DNA of 64,000 bases from Malacoraja senta (taxonomy: Eukaryota): the NCBI GenBank assembly GCA_038087875.1, contig CM075991.1, positions 8,558,001 through 8,622,000 of the forward strand, written 5' to 3'. This document shows positions 7,639-53,486 of the stretch, piece after piece (positions within the stretch are counted from its first letter, which is position 1; every line of letters starts with the position of its first letter). The position numbers were made by a program, and so were the translations under genes. The notes under the pieces are model-generated. The model did no database searches. It saw nothing but the letters and a program-made list of their open reading frames with translations, and was not told the origin of the DNA.

Positions 7639-7984
7639 AGGGCCTGTCCCACTGTACGAGGTAATTCCAGAGTAACTCCCGAGTTTTCCCCTGATTCGAA
7701 CTCGGAGAATGTCCGGAGCATTCGTGGATGTCTCGTAGAGGCTCGTACGAGTAACGGTAGGTACTCGGGAAATCCGGTAAACTCGTGACGTTTTTTCAAC
7801 ACCGTGAAAAATGTCCACGAGTAAAAAAATACTCGTGATGAAATAGATTGTTACTTTTTACTCGTACGAGCCGCTACGAGACATCCACGAACTCCTACCG
7901 ACCCGCTACGGACATTCTCCGAGTTCGAATCAGGGGAAAACTCGGGAGAACTCTTGAATTACCTCGTACAGTGGGACAGGCCCT
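7639..7984. mobile_element. PIF/Harbinger-type MITE with long TIRs
   Basis: Termini AGGGCCTGTCCCACTGTACGAG...CTCGTACAGTGGGACAGGCCCT. TAA TSD on both sides. Confidence 0.85.
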
Positions 7985-9387: not shown

Positions 9388-12329
9388 GGGGAAATTAAAT
9401 TAAAGCAATTCAATACATTTGGAATAAAAAGATAGCAACACAAATCTGTGGGATTATTGTAAAAACCCTTCAATCACAGTAACATTGTTCAAGAAAGAAA
9501 ATCAGCCATCCATAACCAGCCTGGCTTATGGATGACCTCTGACCCGCCAATGCGTTTAACCTTTAACCAGCCTCTGCAAAGGGCTGCTGAGTTCACAGTG
9601 CTGCACATTTTCGGAACCAATTAGGGGGAGAAAGCAAATGCTAGCCTTGGCCTAGCTGCCCACATCCCGTGAATAAATAAGAACAGTGAGATTTGTTGGT
9701 TTAATATCTATGTTTGAAGATACTGACAATTCTCAAGGGCAGAATGAGTGGGAATTTAAGAGTCTGTGGCATTTTGGAATGGAACCCAAGTGCAAAATAC
9801 TTTCTTTACAAACGTCGACCTCCCCAAGGAGAGGACGTGCCTGCATTAAGATGTCTTCAACGCTGCTAGTAGTTGACCTAAGGTGACTGGTGTCCGTACT
9901 TCCAAGTAGCCAGTGGATGGTTCTATTCCAATCAAGCAGAGGAAGAGGAGCCCCACGTAGACAAACTGTCAACAAAATAAAGTTTGGAAACAAGGGACTG
10001 CAGATTGTGGTTTAGCTCAGCTCTGTTCTGGGGTACAGCGCGGAAACAGGCCCTTTGGCCCACTGAGCACAATGACCAGCGATCCTTGCACACTAACACT
10101 ATCCCACACACAATAGACAATAGACAATAGGTGCAGGAGTAGGCCATTTGGCCCTTCGAGCCAGCACCGCCATTCAATGTGATCATGGCTGATCATCCCC
10201 AATCAGTACCCCGTTCCTGCCTTCTCCTCATATCCCCTGACTCCGCTATTTTTAAGAGCCCCATCTAGCTCTCTCTTGAAAGCATCCAGAGAACCTGCCT
10301 CCACCGCCCTCTGAGGCAGAGAATTCCACAGACTAGGGATAATTTACAATTTTACCGAAGTCAATCAACACAACACAACAAACCCGTGTATCTTTGGAGA
10401 AAGGGAGGATTCCGCAGCTCCCGGAGAAAACCCACGCAGGTCATGGGGGGAGAACGTACAAACTCCGCACAGACAGTGTAGTCAGGATCGAAGCCGGATC
10501 TCCACCGCTGTGCCACAGTGCCGCCCCTGTATTCGATGCCTCCTTCTATTCACCCACAGCTTTTGCCTGCATCTTCCAATTAGCAATTTATGACATTATG
10601 CAACAACGGAATATAAAATGAATAGCAACACAAACTCAATCAGCAAACAACACAGATCTACCACTTCCTTCCTGGACTGTTAATAATTGGATATGTTCAT
10701 TAAAGAAAACTAGTCGTTCTGTACATTCTGGAGAGCAATAAATTGAGCTCTCAATTCACATCTTTCTCCAAAAGTTACTGCTCCGGTATCAAAAAGAACA
10801 ACACAACCTACTTAGTTTTGTTTAATTTGAAATCTTCCTTGCAAGAAAACAGGAGAAATGCCAGACCCAACAGTGCAATTAACAACGCGCTCTGAAATTG
10901 GCAGAACAAGCTATACAAAATGCATTAGGCTGCTTTAAGGCTTTAAAATTTTCAAGGTTAATGATGTTTTATTGTGGACCAGTTTATTGAGGGAAGGGAA
11001 CAGTGACTCAACGCCAGGTAACATTTGCCAGCAGTACATGGTGAATGTTGATGTGTTAGGTGTTGAGGGAGGAAAGATTAATTTTGCAAGGAGCTGAACT
11101 CAGTGTCCTCAGGATCAGCATTGGGAGAAGTTCCCTTGTATCACACGCTAGGATCAGTGACTTGGAGCCAATGCTGGGATCAATCACCCACTGCCAACAT
11201 CTGGGTCAGTCCCACACGAGTTCACAAGTTATAGGAGTAGAATTAGGCCATTCGGCCCATCGAGTCTACTCCGCCATGCAATCATGGCTGATCTCTGCCA
11301 CCTAATCCCATTTTCCTGCCTTCTCCCCATAACCCTTGGCACCCGTTCTAATCAAGCATTTGTCTATCTCTTCCATAAAAATATCCACTGACTCTCTAGG
11401 TGCCTCCGGTCGGTTCGATCACCCAGTGCCCACACTGGAGAAAACTAGACGCATAAAGCTGGAGTAACTCAGCGGGTCAGGCAACATCTCTGGATAGAAG
11501 GAATAGGTGACGTTTCCGGTCGGTTCACGACCCCAGTTTGAAGAAGCATATCGACCTGAAACGTCATCTGTTCCATTTCTGCAGAGATGCTGCCTGACCC
11601 GTTACGTTACTCCAATTTTATGTGTTCACCTTCGGAATAAACCAGCATCTGCAGTTCCTTCCTACACTGGAGAAAACTACTTGGGGACAACATTGGGATC
11701 AATCCCAATGGAGAAATATTGGCGTTACTTTTGAAGGATGACATTATTTCACCAGAAATAATATTGTCAATAATCCCGAAGGTTCAACAATCAAATCAAT
11801 CCGTCAGAGTAACAATGGAATCAACCACGAAGGAATAACATTGATGCGAATCCCCCAGGAGTCATACTGGGGACAATCTTGGAATAGCATTGGTGTTAAT
11901 TTTTCAGTGAGATCTTTGGGTTAATTCTAAGGGCTTACGTTGGGCTTGGAATCCATTGGCAATGCAACAATCACTCTCCTTGTTCTTACACTGTTAGAAC
12001 ATCTCCCTGTCAAGGATTGGGGTCATTGTGCACCGTAGAGGAAAGCACATTGAATTTATTAAATGATGTACCGTTTATCCTGCTTGCCCTTCAAACTGAA
12101 GTGCAACTGAAGTCCCGCCAGCTTTGCTAATTAAGACGGCCACAGGCATCATGTGCTTTGTAGAATTCCAATCCACATCCGAATGGTGTATCTACTCACT
12201 CGTCCTATCTTGCCTGCCCTCTGTGTCTCTCCAAAGAAGACTGATTATCACTCCACTGATGCCATACCATAGTCTGCAAGCTGAGAGATATTGAAATCAG
12301 AGCCAGAACTCTTTTCAGCAGGTTCGAGC

Positions 12330-14302: not shown

Positions 14303-14620
14303 TAGACACAAAATGCTGGAGGAACTCAGCGGGTGAGGCAGCATCTCTGGAGAGAAGGAATGGGCGACGTTTCGGGTCGAGAGACTGATGTCAGGGGAGG
14401 GGGTGGGACAAAGACAGAATGTAGTCGGAGACAGTAAGACTAGTGGGAGAACTGGGAAGGGGAAAGGGATGGAGAGAGAAAGCAAGGGCTATCTGAAGTG
14501 AGAGAAGCCAATGTTCATACCGCTGAGGTGTAAGCTGCCCAAGCAAAATATGAGGCGCTGGTCCTCCAATTTGCGCTGGGCCTCACTCCGACAATGGAGG
14601 AGGCCCAGGACAGGAAGCCC
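14303..14620 (-). mobile_element. PLE 3' fragment (endonuclease C-terminus plus pseudo-LTR)
   Basis: Translates VLGLLHCRSEAQRKLEDQRLIFCLGSLHLSGMNIGFSHFR*, followed by the pLTR consensus. Confidence 0.8.
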
Positions 14621-15598: not shown

Positions 15599-15834
15599 AG
15601 GGCCTGTCCCACTTTCACGACCTAATTCACGACCTCTGCCGAGTTTGCCCTTGACTCATACTCGCAGCATGGTCGTCACGAGGTCGTAGGAGGTCGTAGG
15701 TAGGTCGTAGCAGGCCGTGATGCTAGTCGTAGGTACTCGTGGCATCAAGTAGGTCGGGCGTTTTTCTAGCCTGATGAAAAATGTCCACAAGTAAAAAAGG
15801 TTGTGAATTAGGTCGTGAAAGTGGGACAGGCCCT
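15599..15834. mobile_element. Harbinger-type MITE nested in a SINE
   Basis: TIR AGGGCCTGTCCCACTTTCACGACCTAATTCAC. Flanks GAA/TAA. The host SINE resumes GGGTGCTGCC. Confidence 0.85.
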
Positions 15835-18074: not shown

Positions 18075-18699
18075 AGCCCCTGTCCCACTTAGGCGATTTT
18101 ATCGGCGACTACAGATGACTTGGCTGTCGCCACATAGCCAAGGGGTGACGCCTGTATAGTCGTGAGTAGTCTCCTCAAAAGTCGCCTAAAGAGTCGTAAC
18201 GTTTTTCTGGTCGCTGCTGGATTTTGAAATGTTCAAAACTTTTCGGCGTCTTTGGGCTTGACGTAGCTTGGTCTTCTCCTGTCGATGGTGCTGTCGGAGG
18301 TCGTCGCCAGGATGACGCAGGTTGTTGCCACCGGGTGCTGACTTCGGTGAATTCCATTGGCGACTACCTACGCCAACTTACGGCGTCAGGTGCCGGTGAC
18401 TGAATTGTCATCAGTTGTCGCCGACAGGGTCGTTGCTTGTCGTAGCTTGTTACAGGTGGAGGTAGGTTGACTTCCGTTGTCGTAGGTTGTCGCCTGTGTG
18501 GTCGTAGGTGTGTTCGTAGGTGGACGTCCTAATGTGTCGCCGGTTGTCGGGAGCTTGACGTCGACAAGGTGGTAGGTTGTGCTAGCTTGTCGTAGACATT
18601 GTCGTAAGGGGCGTCCAGTCGCCGCTTTTTCGTCGACCTGCTACGACTGTGACAGTCGCCGGCAGTCGCCGAAAAAGTCGCCTAAGTGGGACAGGCCCT
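18075..18699. mobile_element. Harbinger-type MITE, 625 bp, CpG-rich with GTCG/GTCGTAGG repeats
   Basis: Termini AGCCCCTGTCCCACTTAGGCGA...TCGCCTAAGTGGGACAGGCCCT. TTA on the left flank. Confidence 0.8.
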
Positions 18700-21593: not shown

Positions 21594-23184
21594 GGCCCTG
21601 AACAGAAACGTCACCTATCCATGTTCTCCACAGATGCTGCCTGACCCGCTGAGTTACTCCAGCACTCTGTGAAACGTCACCTATCCATGTTCTCTACAGA
21701 TGCTGCCTGACCCGCTGAGTTACTCCAGCACTTTGTGTCCTTTTGCATGAACTAGCAGTTCCCTGTTTCTACTAGGTTGCAAAACATATTTGGCTAATAA
21801 AGTATGATTATGAATAAGATTATGACGATTATGATTATGATTACTGAACTTGAAAATGCCAGATTACATATGTCGTTCTCAAGAAGTTTTTTTTTCTGTG
21901 GTAGCAATTGTGACCCTAAATACAAAGAGTGCCGATGCTTATTGTAAGATAAATGACACAAAGTGCTGGAGTATATTTATTCACTGGAATTTAGAAGACA
22001 CATAAGATTCTTAAGGGATTGGACAGGCTAGATGCAGGAAAAAATGTTCCCGATGTTGGGGGAGTCTAGAACTAGGGGGTCACAGTTTAAGAATAATGGG
22101 TCGGCCATTTAGGACTGTGACGAGGAAAATCGTTTTCACCCAGAGAGTTGTGAATCAGTGGAAGTCTCTGCCACAGAAGGCAGTGGAGGTCAATTCACTG
22201 GATGTTTTCAAGAGAGAGTTAGATTTAGCTCTTCGGGCTAAAGGAATCAAGGGATATGGGGAGAAAGCAGGAACGGGGTATTGATTTTGGATGATCATAT
22301 TCAATGGCGGTGCTGGCACGAAGGGCTGAATGGCCTACTCCTGCACCTATTCTCCATGTTTCTAGTAACTCAGCAGATCAAGCGGTATCTCTGGAGAACA
22401 TGGTGATGTTTCCGGTGTGACTCTTCTTCAGACTGATTGTGATGGGGTGGGGGGGGGTGGGGGGGGGGGGGTCTGACAAGGTGAGATAGTTGCAAGGGGG
22501 GGGGTGAGATAGTTGGAAGACAAGTAGGAGCAGGACAAAGCCTGGCATTGATAGGAGGCTTTTTCAATCGCAGCACTGATAAAAACTGAACACACAAGGC
22601 TCTCACCATACATTTGTGGGTTGCAAACTCGTTGGGTTCGATGTGTGTGCAACTGTGTCTAGAAGTCACCTAATGTTTATGCATGTTTTTTTACAAAATA
22701 AATTATTTCTCGTATCTGTGATATTACAGTAAATTTAACACATGCAAATGAATATTTTTCAAACTGCTTTCATTAACAGATAATGTTAGGATTTTAATAA
22801 TTTTGTAATGACTGTGGGATAATTTCAACAACATACAGAAGTCGGAAATATGAAGTTTAACTTGGACCAGCGGGGATAAATTATATTTTTCCGCTGGTGA
22901 ATTAAATCTTCTGCGTGGCTTTGCAGAGGAAAGAAAATGTGCGCATCGAGGTGCATAGGGCATAAGAAATAGGTGTAAGATCAGGATGTTAAAGAAGGAA
23001 CTGCAGATGCTGGAAAATCGAAGGTAGACAAAAATGCTGGAGAAACTCAGCGGGTGCAGCAGCATCTATGGAGCGAAGGAAATAGGCAATGTTTCGGGCC
23101 GAAATCCTTCTTCAGATCAGGTTGCAGGGTTTAATCAAGCAACTTCAGATCAGGGGCAAAATGGTTTTGATGCACAATTAAGGA

Positions 23185-34400: not shown

Positions 34401-34416
34401 CCCCCCCCCCTCTGCT

Positions 34417-35032
34417 GGTCCACTGGTCCACTGGTCCACTGGTCCACTGGTCCACTGGTTCACTGGTCCACTGGTCCACTGGTCCACAGGTCCACTGGTC
34501 CACAGGTCCACTGGTCCACTGGTCCACTGGTCCACAGGTCCACTGGTTCACTGGTCCACTGGTTCACTGGTTCACTGGTCCACTGGTCCACTGGTCCACT
34601 GGTTCACTGGTCCACAGGTCCACTGGTTCACTGGTCCACTGGTTCACTGGTTCACTGGTCCACTGGTCCACTGGTCCACTGGTCCACAGGTCCACTGGTC
34701 CACTGGTTCACTGGTTCACTGGTCCACTGGTCCACAGGTCCACTGGTCCACTGGTTCACTGGTCCACTGGTCCACAGGTCCACTGGTTCACTGGTCCACT
34801 GGTCCACTGGTTCACTGGTCCACTGGTCCACAGGTCCACTGGTTCACTGGTCCACTAGTCCACAGGCCCACTGGTCCACTGGTCCACTGGTCCACAGGTC
34901 CACTGGTTCACTGGTTCACTGGTCCACTGGTTCACTGGTTCACTGGTTCACTGGTCCACTGGTTCACTGGTCCACTGGTTCACTGGTCCACTGGTCTACT
35001 GATCCACTGGTCCACTGATCCACTGGTCCACT
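34417..35032. repeat. 8-bp tandem repeat (GGTCCACT, variants GGTTCACT/GGTCCACA), 77 units
   Basis: 616 bp divided by 8 gives 77 units. It explains the WSTGPLVH ORFs. Confidence 0.95.
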
Positions 35033-35943
35033 GCCCCTCCTCCTCTTGGACTCCCCCCCAGACGACCTTCTTTCATATATTTTTTTTTAACTTTCCACAT
35101 ACTCGAATTCCACTACCACTGTTTTCAACTATGCAGGGATATTTTACTATATTTATGAAAAAATATATAATATAAATTCAAGCTGTGGTTGGTCAAATCT
35201 AGAAGTCAGCATGAGTCTCCGCAGAATATAATTCTCTCGGCTGGAAGCTCATCGTCGTGAAATATTGACTGTCTCTCTCTCTCTCTCTCTCTGGAAGCTT
35301 TTTCTATGTCTGTAAATTCCAGGTTTATCAGGCTGCTTAAATTTAAATGTCTCAGGGTGCTGTGATGGGATTTGAAGTCACAATGCAGCATCAGTAGTCC
35401 AGAACTCTGGCTGCTAGTTCAATATGTTATTACAGGAGGGCCTTGGTGAGACTGCTGATGAGGTTTGGTCATAAGGTCATAAGGAATAGCAGCAGAATTA
35501 GACCATTCGGCCCATCGAGTCTACCCCGCCATTCAATCATGGCTGATCTATCTCTCCCTCCTAACCCCATTCTCCTGCCTTCTCCCCATGACCTGTGCCA
35601 CCTGCACTAATCAAGAGGGTGCAGGTCCACCAGTTTGCTGTAAGAGGTCAGGCAGCCTGGAGCTTCATTCTCCAGGGTCAAGAAGAACGAGAGGGAAGAA
35701 CAACATTCCCAGTTGTCCAATGCTTTAACTTGGAGGGACAGCAATTCATATTTGGCTTGGGCAGCTTACAACCCAGAGATAGACACAAAATGCTGGAGTA
35801 ATTCAGCATGTCAGGCAGCATCTCTGGAGAGAAGGAATGGGTGACGTTTCGGGGCGAGACCCTTCTTCAGACTCCACCTCACCGATTCCTCTCCTCCAGA
35901 TATGCAGCCTGTCCCGCTGAGTTACTCCAGCATTTTGTGTCTA

Positions 35944-36375: not shown

Positions 36376-37220
36376 TCTACCTTCGATTTAAACCAGCATC
36401 TGCAGTTCTTTCCTTACCGTACAACCCAGAGGTATGAGTATTGATTTCGCTAACTCCAAGTAACCCATGAATCCCCCCTCGCTCCATCCCTCCCCCACAT
36501 AAGCTGTTTTACTTGCTTCAAAGTCATCTTGTTGAGTCTCATTATCTGTAACTCGTTTTTCACCTAGCCCACAGCTAACCTGTTGCCTTTATCACCGTAA
36601 CTTTTTTTGCATATCTTTCATTTATTTGTTCTATATCTCTCCATATCACCATCTATATCTCTCGTTTCCCTTTCCCCTGACTCTCAGTCTGAAGAAGGGT
36701 CGTTCCCCGAAACGTCACCCATTCCTTCCCTCCAGAGATGCTGTCTGACCCGCTGAGTTACTCCAGCCTTTTGTGTCTATCTTCGGTTTAAACCAGCGTC
36801 TGCAGTTGCTTCCTAAACATTCTTAAATGGTTTGACGGGTTAGATGGAGAGAAGATATTCTCCCTGACTGAGGATTCTTGGGACAGTGGGCCCAGTTGGA
36901 GAATAAGAGGCAATGTCATTTGGGATTGGATTGAGAAGTTTCTTCACTCAGAGGTAGACCAGATTAGTTGAGTTTATTGTCACGCGTACTGTGGCACAGT
37001 GAGAAGCTTTTGTTGAGCGCTATCCAGTCAGCGGAAAGACCATACATGATTACAATCGAGCCGTCCACAGTGTACAGATACATGATAAAGAGAATAACAG
37101 TTAGTGCAAGGTAATGGTGCCAGAGGTTATGGGGAGAAGGCAGGAGAATGGGGTTGAGAGGGAGAGATAGATTAGCCATGATTGAATGACAGAATAGACT
37201 TGATGGGCCAAATGGCCCTA

Positions 37221-38910: not shown

Positions 38911-40850
38911 TGACATTTATTACAAATCCACTGACTCCCACAATTATCTCGACTACACTTCTTCCCACCCTGCTTCCTTCAAAGACTCTATCTCCAACTC
39001 CCAATTCCTCCGTCTTTGCCGCATCTGCACCCAAGATGAGGTGTTCCATACCATGACTTCCGAGGAATCATAGATGAGGCCCTCACTCGTGTCTCCTCGG
39101 TACCCCGCAGATCCCCCTCCCCCTAGTTGCAACAGAGACAGATTCCCCCTAGTCATTCCCCCTAGGACTGGACAAGCTAGATGCAGGAAAAATGTTCCCA
39201 ATGTTGGGCGAGTCCAGAACCAGGGGCCACAGTCTTAGAATGAAGGGGAGGTCATTTAAGACTGAGGCGAGAAAAAACTTTTTCACCCAGAGAGTTGTGA
39301 ATTTATGGAATTCCCTGCCACAGAGGGCAGTGGAGGCCAAGTCACTGGATGGATTTAAGGGAGAGTTAGATATAGCTCTAGGGGTTAGTGGAGTCAAGGG
39401 ATATGGAGAGAAGGCAGGCACGGGTTATTGATAGGGGACGATCAGCCAGGATCACAATGAATGGCGGTGCTGGATCGAAGGGCCGAATGGCCTCCTCCTG
39501 CACCTATTTTCTATGTTTCTATGTTTCTATTATCTTTCACCCCATCAGCCATCGCATACAACACATAATCCTCTGAAATTTCTGCCACCTCCAACGAGAT
39601 CCCACCACTAGCCACATTTTCCCATCTCCACCTCTTTCCGCCTTCCGCAGAGACCGTTCCCTCCTCAACTCCCTGGTTAACTCATCCCTTCCCACCCAAA
39701 CCACCCCCTCTCCAGGTACCTTCCCCTGCAGAAGATGCAACACCTGTCCATATACCTCCTCCCTCGACTCTGTCCAGGGACCCTGACAGTCCTTTCAGGT
39801 TAGGCAGAGGTTCACTTGCACCTCCTCCAACCTCATCTACTCGGCGAGACCAAACGTAGACTGTGCGATTGTTTTGCTGAACACCGTCGCTCAGTCCGCC
39901 TGGACCTACCTGATCTCCCGGTTGCTAAACACTTCAATTCTCCTTCCCATTCCCACACTGACCTTTCTGTCCTAGGTCTCCTCCATTGTCAGGGTGAGGC
40001 TAAACGCAAATTGGAGGAACAGCATCTCATATTTTGCTTGAGCAGCTTACAGCCCAGTGGTTGAATTTTATGATTTCTCTAACTTCAAGTAACCCCGGCA
40101 TTCCCTCTCTCTCTATCCCTCCCCCACCCAAGTTGCACTAGCTTCTCATTTTCACCCAACAAACAGCTTACAATGGCCTGTTTCCCTTATCATCGTAGGG
40201 AGGCAAAAATGCTGGAGAAACTCAGCGGGTGAGGCAGCATCTATGGAGCGAAGGAACATGGAAAAGTTTCGGGTCAAGACCCTTCTTCAGACTGATGTGA
40301 GAGGGGGGGGGGGGAAGAAGAAAGGAAGAGGTAGAGCCAGTGGGCTGAGGGAGAGCTGAGAAGGGGAGGAGAAAGCAGGGACTACCTGAAATTGGAGAAG
40401 TCAATGTTCATACCGCTGGGGTTTAAACTGCCCAAGCGAGATATGAGGTGCTGCTCCTCCAAATTACGGTGGGCCTCACTCTGGCCATGGAGGAGGCCCA
40501 GGACAGAAAGGTCGGATTCGGAATGGGAGGGGGAGTTGAAGTGCTGAGCCACCGGGAGATCAGGTTGGTTATTGCGAACCGAGCGGAGGTGTTGGGCGAA
40601 GCGATCGCCAAGCCTACACTTGGTCTCACCGATGTAGATCAGCTGACATCTAGAGCAGCGGATGCAATTATCATCGTTACTTTTTTGCATATCTTTCATT
40701 CATTTTTCTTTATCTCTCTACATTATCGTCTACTGTAAATCTCTCGTTTCCCTTAAACCCTAACTAGACTGAAGAAGGGTCTCGACCCATTCTTTCTCTC
40801 CAGAGATGCTGCCTGTTCCGCTGAGTTACTCCAGCTTTTTGTGTCGATTA
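38911..40850 (+). mobile_element. Penelope-like element (PLE) remnant: RT thumb, GIY-YIG endonuclease and pseudo-LTR, interrupted by a CR1 (39165-39528) and a second PLE (40197-40667)
   Basis: Translates DIYYKSTDSHNYLDYTSSHPAS..SQFLRLCRIC (PLE RT motif) and GETKRRL..FAEH..PVAKHFNSPSHS..LEEQHLIF.L (GIY-YIG). Frameshifted. Confidence 0.85.
40197..40667 (-). mobile_element. PLE 3' fragment (GIY-YIG endonuclease plus pseudo-LTR with hammerhead motif) nested in another PLE
   Basis: ORF 40382-40699 reads CIRCSRCQLIYIGETKCRLGDRFAQHL...PVAQHFN...GMNIDFSNFR. 10-bp TSD TTATCATCGT at 40187-40196 and 40668-40677. Confidence 0.85.
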
Positions 40851-49257: not shown

Positions 49258-49867
49258 GTAATGCCATACATTCATTAGTGTTATATTCGGTAATGTTGGC
49301 AAACTTATCTTATACCCAGTACCCTTACCGCTCATGTGGCCTCCTGGGCTGATATCCTTTCCCTTGTTCGAAAGGTGTCCACACCACACCCTGCCCACCA
49401 ATGTTCCACAGCGGGAGGACCCTAGACTTTGGGCGCACGGTGGTGCTACGGTAGAATTACGGTTCGATCCTGACTACGGGTGCTGCTTGTACGGAGTTTG
49501 TACGTTCTCCCCGTGACCTGCGTAGGTTTTTCTCCGAGATCCTCCCTCACTCCAAAGACGGACAGGTTTGTAGGTTAATTGGCTTGATATAGATGTTAAA
49601 TTGTCACTAGAGTGTGTCGGGTAGTGTTAGTGTGCGGGCATCGCTGGTCGGTGCGGACTCGGTGGGCCGAAGGGCCTGTTTCCGTGCTGTCTCTCAAGAA
49701 TTAAACTAAACTAAACTGTAGATCGACACAAAAAGCTGGAGTAACTCAACGGGTCAGATAGCATCTCCGGAGAGAAGGAATAGGTGACGTTTCGGGTCGA
49801 GACCAAACTGTGGTCCTCCCCCACAGAGCACTCCTACTACTAGGGTGGACACAAAATGCTGGAGTTA

Positions 49868-50298
49868 AGCCCCTGTCCCACTTAGGAGACCTAAACAGCG
49901 ACCTCTGGTGACCTTGCCCGCCACCCAAAAACAATTCAAGGTCGAGGTGACCTGCAACCTCCTACCACCTCCCACGCATATGTTGAAAACCTTCCTCGAC
50001 TATGAAGAAAACCGGCTTCGACTAGACCTGCGACTAAAAAATGATCGATTTTTAAAACGGCGACCGATTTTTAGTCGAGGCCGGTTTTCTTCATAGTCGA
50101 GGAAGGTTTTCAACATATGCGTGGGAGGTGGTAGGAGGTTGCAGGTGGTAAAATAGCAACAACCTAGATGAAGCTTCGACCACGCGGAAACCACTTTCGA
50201 CCATTAGGGAGAGTGACCAAAACCTCCAGTGACCTCATGGGTGGCGGGCAAGGTCACCAGAGGGGACTGTTTAGGTCTCCTAAAGTGGGACTGGGGCT
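49868..50298. mobile_element. Harbinger-type MITE with an internal 75-bp inverted repeat, inserted in a pLTR
   Basis: Termini AGCCCCTGTCCCAC...GTGGGACTGGGGCT. The host GCTGGAG-TAA-CTCAGCGGG is split. Confidence 0.85.
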
Positions 50299-50354
50299 TA
50301 ACTCAGCGGGTGAGGCAGCATCTATGGAGAGAAGGAATTGGCGACGTTTCGGGG

Positions 50355-50759
50355 TCCCGAAACGTCGCCAATTCCTTCTCTCCATAGATGCTGCTGCACC
50401 CGCTGAGTTACTCCAGCATTTTGCGTCTACCTTCGATTTACCAGCATCTGCAGTTCTTTCTTAAACAAGCACTCTTCAGTCTGAAGAAGGGTTTCAGCCT
50501 GAAACGTTGCCTATTTCCTTCGCTCCATAGATGCTGCTGCACCCGCTGAGTTACTCCAGCATTTTGCGTCTACCTTCGATTTACCAGCATCTGCAGTTCT
50601 TTCTTAAACAAGCACTCTTCAGTCTGAAGAAGGGTTTCGGCCCGAAACGTTGCCTATTTCCTTCGCTCCATAGATGCTGCTGCACCCGCTGAGTTTCTCC
50701 AGCACTTTTGTCTACCTTCGATTTTCCAGCATCTGCAGTTCTTTCTTAAACAAGCACTC
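50355..50759 (+). repeat. Tandem array of ~2.8 x 143-bp pLTR units, with hammerhead cores at 50481 and 50624
   Basis: GAAACG recurs at 50359, 50501 and 50644. Units are nearly identical. Confidence 0.9.
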
Positions 50760-53486
50760 CTAATACTTGTGCCCAAAGATCTTTGCTTGTGCCTGCTACC
50801 TGACTGGAATTGGATTGTATGCCTTGGGGCAAGAGAGACAAGCAAGCCAGGCAGATCAGGCCAAACATGAGACTAAATGCTGATTTAGTGCAGGGTTGAG
50901 TGAAGACATCACACAATAGTCTTTGGTGGGTCCTTGAAGAAGGCCAGTGCCTAACCAAGCAAGCTCTGGCAGGGTGAATTAATCGAGCTACTACACGCGC
51001 TTTCAATTTCAACCGCGATTGCTTTTACAGGAGGAGAGAGCACAATGGTGGAAATATTATTGCTGAAAGTAACACCTCTGCATCTCCGCACTACAGATGT
51101 TTATGCAGATTAATAAGGCATTTCTTTGTGCTTGTAGCTTGTAGATAAGAACATCACTGTGGCACAATCTTATCTTTTAATTACTGTAACAGTCGCAGAT
51201 TACGCTGCAATATTTCTAGTTGCTGCAGAGGTGTAGGAACCATTAGGTAAATTATCAATATTTTCCTGACAGCGGTTATCGTCTTTGTTACTGATCCTTA
51301 GTAACACGATCGACACTCTCTCCCTCTCTCTCTCTTTCCCCTTCTCTTTCTCCCTCACTTTTTCTCTTTCCCTATTCTCTCTCTCACCCTCACTCACACA
51401 CATAATGACTAAGGCGCCACGGTGGCGCAGCGGTAGAGTTGCTGCCTCACAGCGCTTGCAGCGCCAGAGACCCGGGTTCGATCCCGACGACGGGTGCTGC
51501 CTGTAGGAGGAAACTGGAGCTCTCGGAGAAAACCCACGCAGGTCACGGGGAGAACATACAAACTCCGCACAGGCAGCGTCCATGGTCCAGATCGAACCCA
51601 CGTCTCTGGCGCTGAAAGCGCTGTGAGGCAGCAACTGCCCGCTGCGCCACTGTGCCGCCCTATTTCAACGGTTTTAGACTGTGACAGGAAGATCAGCAGC
51701 CACATAATCCCGCATCAGATCTTTAAGATGGCAAAACCTCTCGGGGTTAAATTAAAATCCTTGCTCTGACCCTTGGAGAACCTTCCTTGTGCAGGAAGCA
51801 GCTTGCAAAGGGGCCAGAAGGGATTTCAAGAGATGATTTCGAGGTGGAAATGAATCAAATCACAGTGTTTTAGATCTGCAAATTAGGTGACTGGGGCTTA
51901 TTTCCTCGGCCACACAAGGTTATAATTACAAGCCTCATCCAGCAAGATCCTTGAAGGAATTGTACAAGCATTAAGTTACCTCTCGGAATGAAAAATGTCA
52001 CCTTTCCATTTAACACTCTGCTTGTGAGAATAGAGAAACAGACAATGGGAATATCTGACTGGGAGTCCCACTGACTCCACTAATAGAAAGAGATCAAGCT
52101 GAGGAACTACATTGGATGAATCAAAATGTGTTGTAATGTTTAGGAAGGAACTGCAGATGCTGGTTTAAACCGCAGATAGACACATAAAGCTGGAGTAACT
52201 CAGCAGGACGGGCAGCATCTCTGGAGAGAAGGAATTGGTGACGTTTCGGGTCGAGACTCTTCTTCAGACTTCAGACTTGATTAGTGATTATTCTTGATTA
52301 GTAAGTGTGTCAGGGCTTATGGGGAGAAGGCAGTAGAATGGGTTGAGAGGGAAAGATGATTGAATGGCAGAGTAAACTAGATGGACCAAATGGCCAAATT
52401 CTGCTCCGATGACTTATGAAGTTACGAATTCTTAGGGCTCTTAGGGATAGCGGAGTTAAGGGATATAGAGAGAAGGCAGGGACGGGGTACTGATTGGGGA
52501 TGATCAGCCATGATCACATTGAATGGCAGTGCTGGCTCGAAGGGCCGAATGGCCTACTCCTGCACCTATTGTCTATTATCTATAATTCGCAATTTAAAAA
52601 AATTGCAAATGAGTCAAGTCAAGTCAAGAGAGTTTATTGTCATGTGTCCCAGATAGGACAATGAAATTCTTGCTTTGCTTCAGCACAACAGAACATAGTA
52701 GGCATTGACTACAAAAACAGATCGGTATATGGACACACTGATCTGTTCTGTAGTCAATGCCTACTATGTTCTGTTGTGCTGAAGCAAAGCAAGAATTCTG
52801 CAATAATCAACAGAAAATGTTGGGAAAACATTTTCTCAAGAAGGGTCATGGGCCTGAAACATTAACTGCTTTCCCTTCATCTCCAACATGCTCAAGGCTT
52901 GTGTGGTGGATATATCAATTATAAACGCCGGATCTGGCCGCTTTACTTTTAAGATTATTTGCACATTTTGTAGCGCGTCAGGAAATCACGCTGCGTGCTT
53001 GCCTTTTGTACTCCAACCTTTTTGCTGTCTTGTCCTGCTATTAACAACGCATCCCTCTCCAACAGAACAATGGCGCCTGAAGCACACAGAAGAGGCAGCC
53101 GCAGCTGTGACAGATGCATAGACGCTCGGCAGATGACATGTAGTATGGATCCCAACAATGGCTGATCAAAGGGAGACATTGGCATCGTTTCCCAGGGGCA
53201 AGTTGAGCTACCAATGTTCTCTGGATTACAAAGAGCTTTGCTTCCAAACGGTTTATTACCCTGATCTCCGAGTAACTGTGCACGGAGTTTTTTTCGCAAA
53301 GTGTCTCACAGCTTCCCACAACCCTCTCGTGATGCACGTTCACCTTTGAAGGTATTTTGAAGCTTTGAATCCACTCGAGGCAACATGTTGTCTTCAATAT
53401 AATATCAATAGCTTCCACCACCCAATGGCTGCAAAAGTGAAGTGGCTTGTGATTAGCAAAGAAGCCTAACAACATCTTGCACTTTG

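What the first reader, a model, noticed from the sequence alone, without database searches (positions are those of the whole stretch)
50355..50759. 143-bp tandem array of hammerhead-bearing monomers, retrozyme-like
Seen: ~2.8 near-identical 143-bp units, with CUGAAGA-A-GGGU(UUCR)GCCY-GAAA-C-GUU cores at 50481 and 50624. Established: minimal PLE hammerheads have a palindromic ACGU stem III and are proposed to work as dimers, and non-LTR retrozymes are tandem hammerhead monomers that yield small circular RNAs. Inference: a read-through transcript could form a double hammerhead in cis and release a 143-nt monomer or circle.
Basis: partly seen in the sequence, partly recalled or inferred. Interest (0 to 1): 0.72.

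Follow-up and report, generated by a model that had tools for sequence, protein, structure and literature searches.

The report
Locally duplicated Penelope retrotransposon end
This short tandem repeat is an ordinary leftover of a very common jumping gene in a cartilaginous fish, copied locally at one spot, and is probably not an active self-cutting circular-RNA element.

Summary
The array is real: 143-bp period, 2.8 copies, minimal type I hammerhead cores at 50481 and 50624. The unit is not a dedicated retrozyme monomer. It is the 3' end (pLTR plus tail) of a very abundant Neptune-type Penelope-like element (PLE): 54 fragments in this window, tens of thousands of contigs per public run, some copies directly downstream of a GIY-YIG ORF end. 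It has a head-to-head inverted arm, split by a later MITE, and a 15-bp target-site duplication. The linker between units begins with 7 nt of that target, so the 143-nt junction is specific to this locus. The middle copy is a chimera of its neighbours. This fits local build-up (re-insertion at its own 3' end, then unequal exchange), not rolling-circle copying. Activity is doubtful but untested: 2-bp stem I, GUU site, CpG decay in one core, a linker complementary to the core, and an unstructured predicted circle. It meets the loose 'two cores in tandem' definition of a non-LTR retrozyme, a kind already reported in a chondrichthyan and traced to PLE pLTRs. Low interest.

The parts
49827..49841 (+). 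Left copy of 15-bp target-site duplication (AGCACTCCTACTACT)
   Evidence: 14 of 15 identical to 50753-50767; these are the only two 15-mers within 2 mismatches in the window, both strands; 7 of about 3000 random window pairs gave such a match
49844..49865 (-). Outer part of the inverted pLTR arm; ends at about unit position 96, without the tail
   Evidence: self-BLAST; alignment
49868..50298 (.). MITE-like DNA element with about 60-bp terminal inverted repeats and an internal palindrome (49950-50146), inserted into the arm with a 3-bp duplication; PIF/Harbinger-like label is recalled
   Evidence: TIRs 92% alike; related TIR ends at 8 other places in the window
50299..50355 (-). Inner part of the inverted arm, head-to-head with copy 1; junction lies in hammerhead stem II
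   Evidence: predicted hairpin with copy 1, mean pairing probability 0.96
50356..50467 (+). Copy 1: 5'-truncated pLTR plus tail, no CUGA core, has GAAACGUC; 5' part matches the arm's subtype
50468..50479 (+). Linker 1: AGCACTC (first 7 nt of the target) + T + TCAG (natural 5' end of the family); its UCUUCAG is complementary to the CUGAAGA core
50480..50610 (+). Copy 2: chimera, 5' half like copy 3 and 3' half like copy 1; core at 50481 with two CpG transitions (50496 in loop II; 50500 turns G10.1-C11.1 into G-U); predicted cut after 50508
50611..50622 (+). Linker 2, identical to linker 1
50623..50752 (+). Copy 3: full pLTR end of the younger subtype; intact minimal core at 50624 (GUU, predicted cut after 50651); tail about 50720-50752
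50753..50767 (+). Right copy of the target-site duplication (AGCACTCCTAATACT); single-copy flank follows
   Evidence: flank depth 26.3 from one contig in run X1
40382..40699 (-). C-terminal GIY-YIG endonuclease fragment of the parent PLE, followed about 90 nt downstream by a pLTR copy (40192-40291); supporting locus, not part of the array

Best explanation
The array is a non-coding remnant of a Neptune-type Penelope-like retrotransposon, built up at one site. SHOWN: the unit is the family's hammerhead-bearing pLTR end plus tail; the insertion has an inverted arm and a 15-bp target-site duplication; the linker contains target sequence; copy 2 is a chimera. INFERRED order: (1) a heavily 5'-truncated copy inserted by target-primed reverse transcription as inverted arm plus direct copy, duplicating 15 bp; (2) a copy of a younger subtype inserted at the 3' junction of the first, duplicating 7 nt of target and giving a head-to-tail pair; (3) unequal exchange or slippage with patchy conversion duplicated a 143-bp segment, making copy 2; (4) a MITE landed in the arm at some time after step 1. 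The hammerhead cores are passengers. At most they cleave weakly if the region is read through; no propagating 143-nt circle is expected.
For: Dispersed family: 54 hits in the window; 79,047, 71,454 and 59,313 contigs laid in three runs against one flank contig in X1. ORF link: GIY-YIG C-terminal fragments lie just upstream of pLTR copies at 40291 and 14376. Relatives of the fragment include RT plus C-terminal GIY-YIG proteins (P0118, P0036, P0013; 3 of 7 scanned had both domains) with a CX2-5CxxC linker (5 of 5 examined). PLE hallmarks: two 3' ends 33-36 nt apart (loose ends at 50716-50719 and 50752; 23 of 51 window hits end at unit 81-100 and 16 of 51 at 121-140); 10 head-to-head pairs among 54 hits. 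The same layout of direct pLTRs, adjacent inverted pLTR, optional tail and TSD is described for PLEs, as is insertion into or next to existing copies. Letters behind 50752 vary (agreement 0.36) in all 4 runs, so AGCACTC is not family sequence. A 116-bp perfect run at offset 143 and a switch of diagnostic sites near unit 60-74 mark the duplicated segment. Catalytic G12 and G16.2 show G>A in about 10% and 7% of summed depth in X1, like non-catalytic CpG sites at 6-8%: no sign of selection on the core in dispersed copies.
Against: The empty site was not seen: no record bridged the insertion and no genome is held, so the TSD and the order of events are inferred from one sequence. Copy 1 is patchier than a single crossover predicts (younger-subtype letters at unit 59-60, older at 74-89). 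Copy 3's core is one of only 2 of 28 fully intact cores in the window. Other head-to-tail junctions of the family exist at a few contigs per run (50752 back to 50620 in 3, 7 and 7 contigs). The folding penalty has no positive control, and blocking the linker did not restore stem II, so inactivity is not shown.
Confidence: 0.78

Rival explanations
1. One insertion event: the PLE reverse transcriptase jumped between several pLTR RNAs of two subtypes and briefly copied the nicked target, laying down the arm and all three copies at once.
For: A single 15-bp TSD brackets everything; the copies are mosaics of two subtypes; template jumps and self-priming are proposed for PLEs.
Against: Both linkers are identical and lie inside a 116-bp perfect run, which needs the same jump twice; a DNA-level duplication gives this directly.
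Confidence: 0.08
2. Same local origin, but the two cores form a working double hammerhead in read-through RNA and release some 143-nt monomer or circle (a newborn retrozyme).
For: The nested double-hammerhead topology is possible and the hammerhead pairs alone cost only +0.5 kcal/mol. Minimal PLE hammerheads show low cleavage as dimers, and one is protein-assisted. The family is present in poly(A) RNA of a relative, 7,589 of 7.3 million reads.
Against: Stem I is 2 bp, the site is GUU, and core 2 has G10.1-U11.1. Core nucleotides pair with the linker at P 0.68-0.99. The constrained fold is 32 kcal/mol above the ensemble, uncalibrated. The circle is no more structured than shuffles, z +0.41. 8 of 9 Xenopus dimers tested showed no cleavage. 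No host gene or promoter was identified.
Confidence: 0.08
3. Member of a rolling-circle non-LTR retrozyme family whose 143-nt unit includes the linker; the 7-nt match to the target reflects priming by microhomology.
For: Two consecutive cores; the array ends exactly in AGCACTC, as microhomology priming would give; TSD longer than 4 bp, as reported for non-LTR retrozymes.
Against: The linker occurs only in this array within the window. At most 13 of 79,047, 16 of 71,454 and 10 of 59,313 contigs and 0 of 7,589 RNA reads ran over the ends of the stretch that began in the linker region. Rolling-circle copying should give uniform units, not subtype mosaics. The core is minimal, not canonical.
Confidence: 0.03
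4. The third copy is an assembly artefact from merging two alleles of a two-copy locus.
For: Copy 2 is a chimera with a 116-bp perfect overlap; no read spanning the array was seen (the stretch laid held only copy 3 and the last linker).
Against: Copy 2 has two private CpG transitions found in neither neighbour, as expected of a real ageing copy.
Confidence: 0.03

Closest known systems
pLTR remnants and partial tandems of EN+ Penelope-like elements, Neptune/Nematis type (PMC3846280, PMC8557442)
   Same: Direct pLTRs with an adjacent head-to-head inverted copy, a 30-40 bp tail on one end only, a TSD, 5' truncation, a parent ORF with C-terminal GIY-YIG and CX2-5CxxC linker.
   Different: No ORF sequence at this locus; the tandem unit carries 7 nt of host target; a third copy arose by local duplication.
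Minimal PLE hammerheads (PMC4209133)
   Same: CUGANGA core, extra nucleotide between 9 and 10.1, G10.1-C11.1 (copy 3), palindromic 15.2-16.2 with no loop 3, mostly single dispersed motifs, pairs on opposite strands.
   Different: Stem I is 2 bp (like the D. virilis variant) rather than 4-5 bp; stem II is 4 bp rather than 6-8; this subtype has GUU.
Vertebrate non-LTR retrozymes, operational sense (bioRxiv 10.64898/2026.07.22.740005)
   Same: Tandem with at least 2 consecutive type I cores; few units; PLE pLTR origin with local amplification, which is the route that preprint proposes; found there in its one chondrichthyan.
   Different: The junction here is locus-specific, so this is a single array rather than a family; activity untested.
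Classical metazoan non-LTR retrozymes of coral, mussel and axolotl (PMC7229834)
   Same: Head-to-tail hammerhead-bearing units, GC below 50%, TSD longer than 4 bp.
   Different: Those mostly have canonical type I ribozymes, units of about 170-400 nt, thousands of copies in tandem repeats and highly self-paired circles shown by northern blot; none of this is seen here.

Membership tests
EN+ PLE remnant (Neptune/Nematis type) | Unit is a pLTR lying downstream of an RT-GIY-YIG ORF | tested here: met
   For family copies at 40291 and 14376, not for this locus. Pfam GIY-YIG on the fragment itself is below the curated cut-off (17.6 vs 22.6 bits); RT+GIY-YIG architecture is seen in relatives at 45-54% identity
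EN+ PLE remnant (Neptune/Nematis type) | Adjacent inverted 5'-truncated copy, head-to-head | tested here: met
   49844-49865 plus 50299-50355; 10 such pairs in the window
EN+ PLE remnant (Neptune/Nematis type) | Optional 30-40 bp tail, often on one end only | tested here: met
   Arm ends at unit 96, direct copies at 130-131; family ends at 50716-50719 and 50752
EN+ PLE remnant (Neptune/Nematis type) | Target-site duplication | tested here: met
   15 bp, 1 mismatch; empty site not seen
EN+ PLE remnant (Neptune/Nematis type) | CX2-5CxxC motif upstream of GIY-YIG | tested here: met
   In a window fragment at 39697-39849 and in 5 of 5 homologues examined; does not separate Neptune from Nematis
EN+ PLE remnant (Neptune/Nematis type) | RT phylogeny or named Repbase/Dfam family | not testable with these tools
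   No RT of this family in hand; no repeat library available
Minimal PLE hammerhead | Conserved core, G10.1-C11.1, palindromic ACGU | tested here: met
   Copy 3 fully; copy 2 has G10.1-U11.1
Minimal PLE hammerhead | Helix I of 4-5 bp | tested here: not met
   Positions 1-4 pair in 24, 25, 3 and 4 of 28 window motifs; the array has 2 bp
Minimal PLE hammerhead | Self-cleavage as a dimer | not testable with these tools
   Folding only
Non-LTR retrozyme (operational) | At least 2 consecutive units with a hammerhead motif and MFE below -5 kcal/mol | tested here: inconclusive
   Two cores, MFE -5.2 to -11.2, but the MFE structures are not the hammerhead fold; the authors' descriptor was not available
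Non-LTR retrozyme (classical) | Same monomer and junction repeated at many loci | tested here: not met
   Linker is target-derived and single-locus in the window; at most about 0.02% of laid contigs could carry it; a direct genome count was not possible
Non-LTR retrozyme (classical) | Canonical type I hammerhead | tested here: not met
   No stem III loop, 2-bp stem I; no Rfam hammerhead match
Non-LTR retrozyme (classical) | Highly self-paired circular monomer | tested here: not met
   -22.7 kcal/mol vs shuffles -24.0 +/- 3.3, z +0.41, 56% paired
Non-LTR retrozyme (classical) | Monomer and circle RNA in vivo | not testable with these tools
   Only a poly(A) library of a relative was laid, which would lose circles

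The most novel reading that the evidence does not exclude
The locus is a datable snapshot of retrozyme birth: a PLE end re-inserted at its own 3' junction and was then duplicated, creating a new 143-nt unit with captured host target whose two cores cleave in cis, perhaps with help from PLE protein, and release a circle. In a genome with one such hammerhead fragment per 1-2 kb, many independent newborn tandems would exist and could be compared.
Probability: 0.08. Interest if true: 0.5.

Novelty: new member of a known kind. Interest (0 to 1): 0.15.

Why it matters
As it stands, little: it is one of very many pLTR remnants. Its use is as a clean worked example. The TSD, the target-derived linker and the chimeric middle copy show nucleotide by nucleotide the 'PLE end, then local amplification' route proposed for vertebrate non-LTR retrozymes. 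It also warns that tandem-plus-motif pipelines will count such one-off arrays as active retrozymes. If the dimer did cleave and circularise, it would be a testable case of a retrozyme arising de novo.

Tried and rejected
Rfam: nothing at gathering score; near the locus only miRNA-like hits caused by the long hairpins and 3 weak unrelated hits. No whole genome is held, so no genome-wide count. The run search listed no RNA holder on record; this is no evidence either way. RNA of a relative (X22) showed equal depth on both strands, 96% of laid reads running on into unlike sequence, no start or end pile-up, and 0 reads for the listed go-back joints of 96, 97 and 133 nt; 102 joints were not shown and poly(A) selection loses circles, so this is not counted against circles. 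I first read TTCAG in the linker as a fold-back stub of the core; one search showed TCAG is the natural 5' end, so only AGCACTC plus one T is foreign. The idea that the linker alone blocks the ribozyme was rejected: with linkers forced unpaired stem II still did not form, and natural-context copies also have mostly paired cores (0.01-0.82 unpaired). The idea that splicing at the AG before the core extends stem I was rejected: the putative upstream exon at 40291 also ends in CAG. Host gene search: 69 of 91 ORFs of at least 100 aa were scanned and 0 had a Pfam hit; short exons would be missed. TSD search on 9 other head-to-head pairs: 1 clear (19 bp), 2 borderline (11-12 bp, 1 mismatch), 3 short 7-8-mers not trusted, 3 none. 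Earlier scan findings: nothing in 3 look-ups. The Lunse et al. paper on PLE hammerhead dimers was not held. A search for GUU and G10.1-C11.1 rates found 0 papers, so their effect on activity is recalled.

Full report
1. Observation. TRF reports an array at 50356-50759, period 143, 2.8 copies, 95% matches. Two cores, CTGAAGA-A-GGGT-TTCR-GCCY-GAAACGTT, start at 50481 and 50624. Copy 1 starts inside stem II and has no CUGA. The motif is far above chance (20 matches, shuffle mean 0.00), but 18 of the 20 matches lie outside the array. Rfam gives no hammerhead match; the call rests on the core consensus, with standard numbering recalled.

2. The unit is a PLE pLTR end. BLAST of one unit gave 54 hits in the window, mostly 71-95% alike. 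Laying public runs on 50600-51300 gave 79,047, 71,454 and 59,313 contigs in X1, X2 and X4, almost all on the unit, while the flank in X1 is one contig at depth 26.3 with 1 difference in 537 letters (summed depth is not a copy number). The copy at 40291(-) follows an ORF end (40382-40699) with a weak GIY-YIG match (E 0.0048, below cut-off). Its best named relatives are cartilaginous-fish gene models, mostly skates (5 hits among 52 candidates), so the host is probably a skate or ray (inference). [quoted passage not shown] A second ORF end precedes the copy at 14376. The family has two 3' ends 33-36 nt apart, the PLE tail signature, and 10 head-to-head pairs among 54 hits.

3. Anatomy of this locus. 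The insertion extends left of the reported coordinates. An inverted arm (49844-49865 and 50299-50355) faces copy 1 and is split by a MITE-like element at 49868-50298 with a 3-bp duplication. A 15-bp duplication brackets everything (49827 and 50753, 14 of 15 identical, the only such pair in the window; null 7 of about 3000). The 12-nt linker is the first 7 nt of that target, one T, and TCAG. In all 4 runs, loose ends fall behind 50752 with variable letters and before 50619 with a pyrimidine-rich consensus, so TCAG is family sequence and AGCACTC is not. The junction occurs only in this array within the window. At most 10-16 contigs per run and 0 of 7,589 RNA reads ran over the ends of the laid stretch. 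Other tandem junctions of the family exist, with periods of 96, 97 and 133 nt, in 1-7 contigs per run where seen.

4. Mosaic copies. The window holds an older subtype and a younger one (23116, 54212, 55475, 55461). The arm and the 5' part of copy 1 are of the older type and copy 3 is of the younger. Copy 2 matches copy 3 over unit 1-73 except two CpG transitions, and matches copy 1 thereafter; the longest perfect run at offset 143 is 116 bp. Copy 1 itself is patchy, so conversion or a further template is needed.

5. Mechanism. Inferred order: first insertion with inverted arm and 15-bp TSD; a younger copy inserted at its 3' junction, duplicating 7 nt of target, in line with reported insertion into or beside existing copies; local duplication of 143 bp; MITE insertion at some time after the first step. 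The empty site was not seen, so the order is not shown.

6. Could it cleave? The double-hammerhead topology is nested and its pairs alone cost +0.5 kcal/mol. Against: stem I is 2 bp here and across the family (24, 25, 3, 4 of 28 motifs pair at positions 1-4); the site is GUU; core 2 has G10.1-U11.1 (effects on rate recalled; one search found no paper); core nucleotides pair with the linker at P 0.68-0.99; the constrained fold lies 32 kcal/mol above the ensemble; the circle is unstructured (z +0.41). Limits: no positive control, tertiary contacts and protein help are not modelled, blocking the linker did not restore stem II, and copy 3 is one of 2 of 28 fully intact cores. In X1, G12 and G16.2 show about 10% and 7% G>A, similar to 6-8% at three non-catalytic CpG sites. 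RNA of a relative fits passive read-through but cannot exclude circles.

7. What is known. PMC4209133, parts 1-2 of 4. PMC7229834, parts 2-3 of 6. PMC11167929, parts 1-2 of 4. PMC3846280, PMC8557442, PMC6765202 and PMC6155905, passages only. Lunse et al.: not seen, known from a review passage. Searches for this family in sharks or skates listed no dedicated description; Repbase and Dfam could not be searched, so absence from print is not claimed.

8. Verdict. It works like a PLE partial tandem with passenger hammerheads. It is a PLE remnant by the 5 features that could be tested. It is a retrozyme only in the loose operational sense and fails 3 tested features of the classical family. New member of a known kind; interest 0.15. 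The boldest reading not excluded, a newborn active retrozyme, has probability about 0.08.

Noticed in passing
window, whole: Hammerhead-bearing pLTR fragments occur about once per 1.2 kb (54 hits); only 2 of 28 recognisable cores are fully intact.
   Followed up: yes
window 36376-36819 (+): Small partial tandem: a tail end, a decayed ORF end with its downstream spacer, then a full pLTR with core at 36689.
   Followed up: partly
window 39697-40200 (+) and 40192-40699 (-): Two PLE endonuclease fragments face each other tail to tail; the first retains the CxxC linker.
   Followed up: partly
window 40292-40399 (-), 14385-14490 (-), 36460-36687 (+): The spacer between ORF end and core looks intron-like (donor-like site at the stop codon, pyrimidine tract, CAG one base before the core), recalling the D. 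virilis arrangement; splicing not tested.
   Followed up: partly
window 21605-21737: Another local tandem of a pLTR fragment (66-bp period, 2 copies, no core), showing such duplications are common.
   Followed up: no
window 11429-11679: Head-to-head pLTR pair flanked by a 19-bp duplication with 1 mismatch.
   Followed up: partly
window 7640-7983, 15600-15833, 18075-18698, 37222, 54890, 49868-50298: MITE-like family sharing GGCC(C/T)GTCCCAC-type terminal repeats, several with internal GGTCGTAGGA repeats; superfamily label not tested.
   Followed up: partly
window about 49435-49690 and 51410-51660: Two SINE-like copies resembling the elasmobranch HE1 family (name recalled, no call).
   Followed up: no
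window 34415-35033: 8-bp minisatellite (CTGGTCCA, 77 copies) that creates the window's longest open frames.
   Followed up: no
proteins P0001-P0005: Several annotated cartilaginous-fish gene models end in this PLE endonuclease fragment, probably annotation chimeras or exonised repeat.
   Followed up: no
joint 50664 back to 50631: A recurrent 34-nt go-back joint spanning stem II to the cut-site region in 16, 7 and 9 contigs and 8 RNA reads; possibly a short internal duplication subfamily.
   Followed up: no
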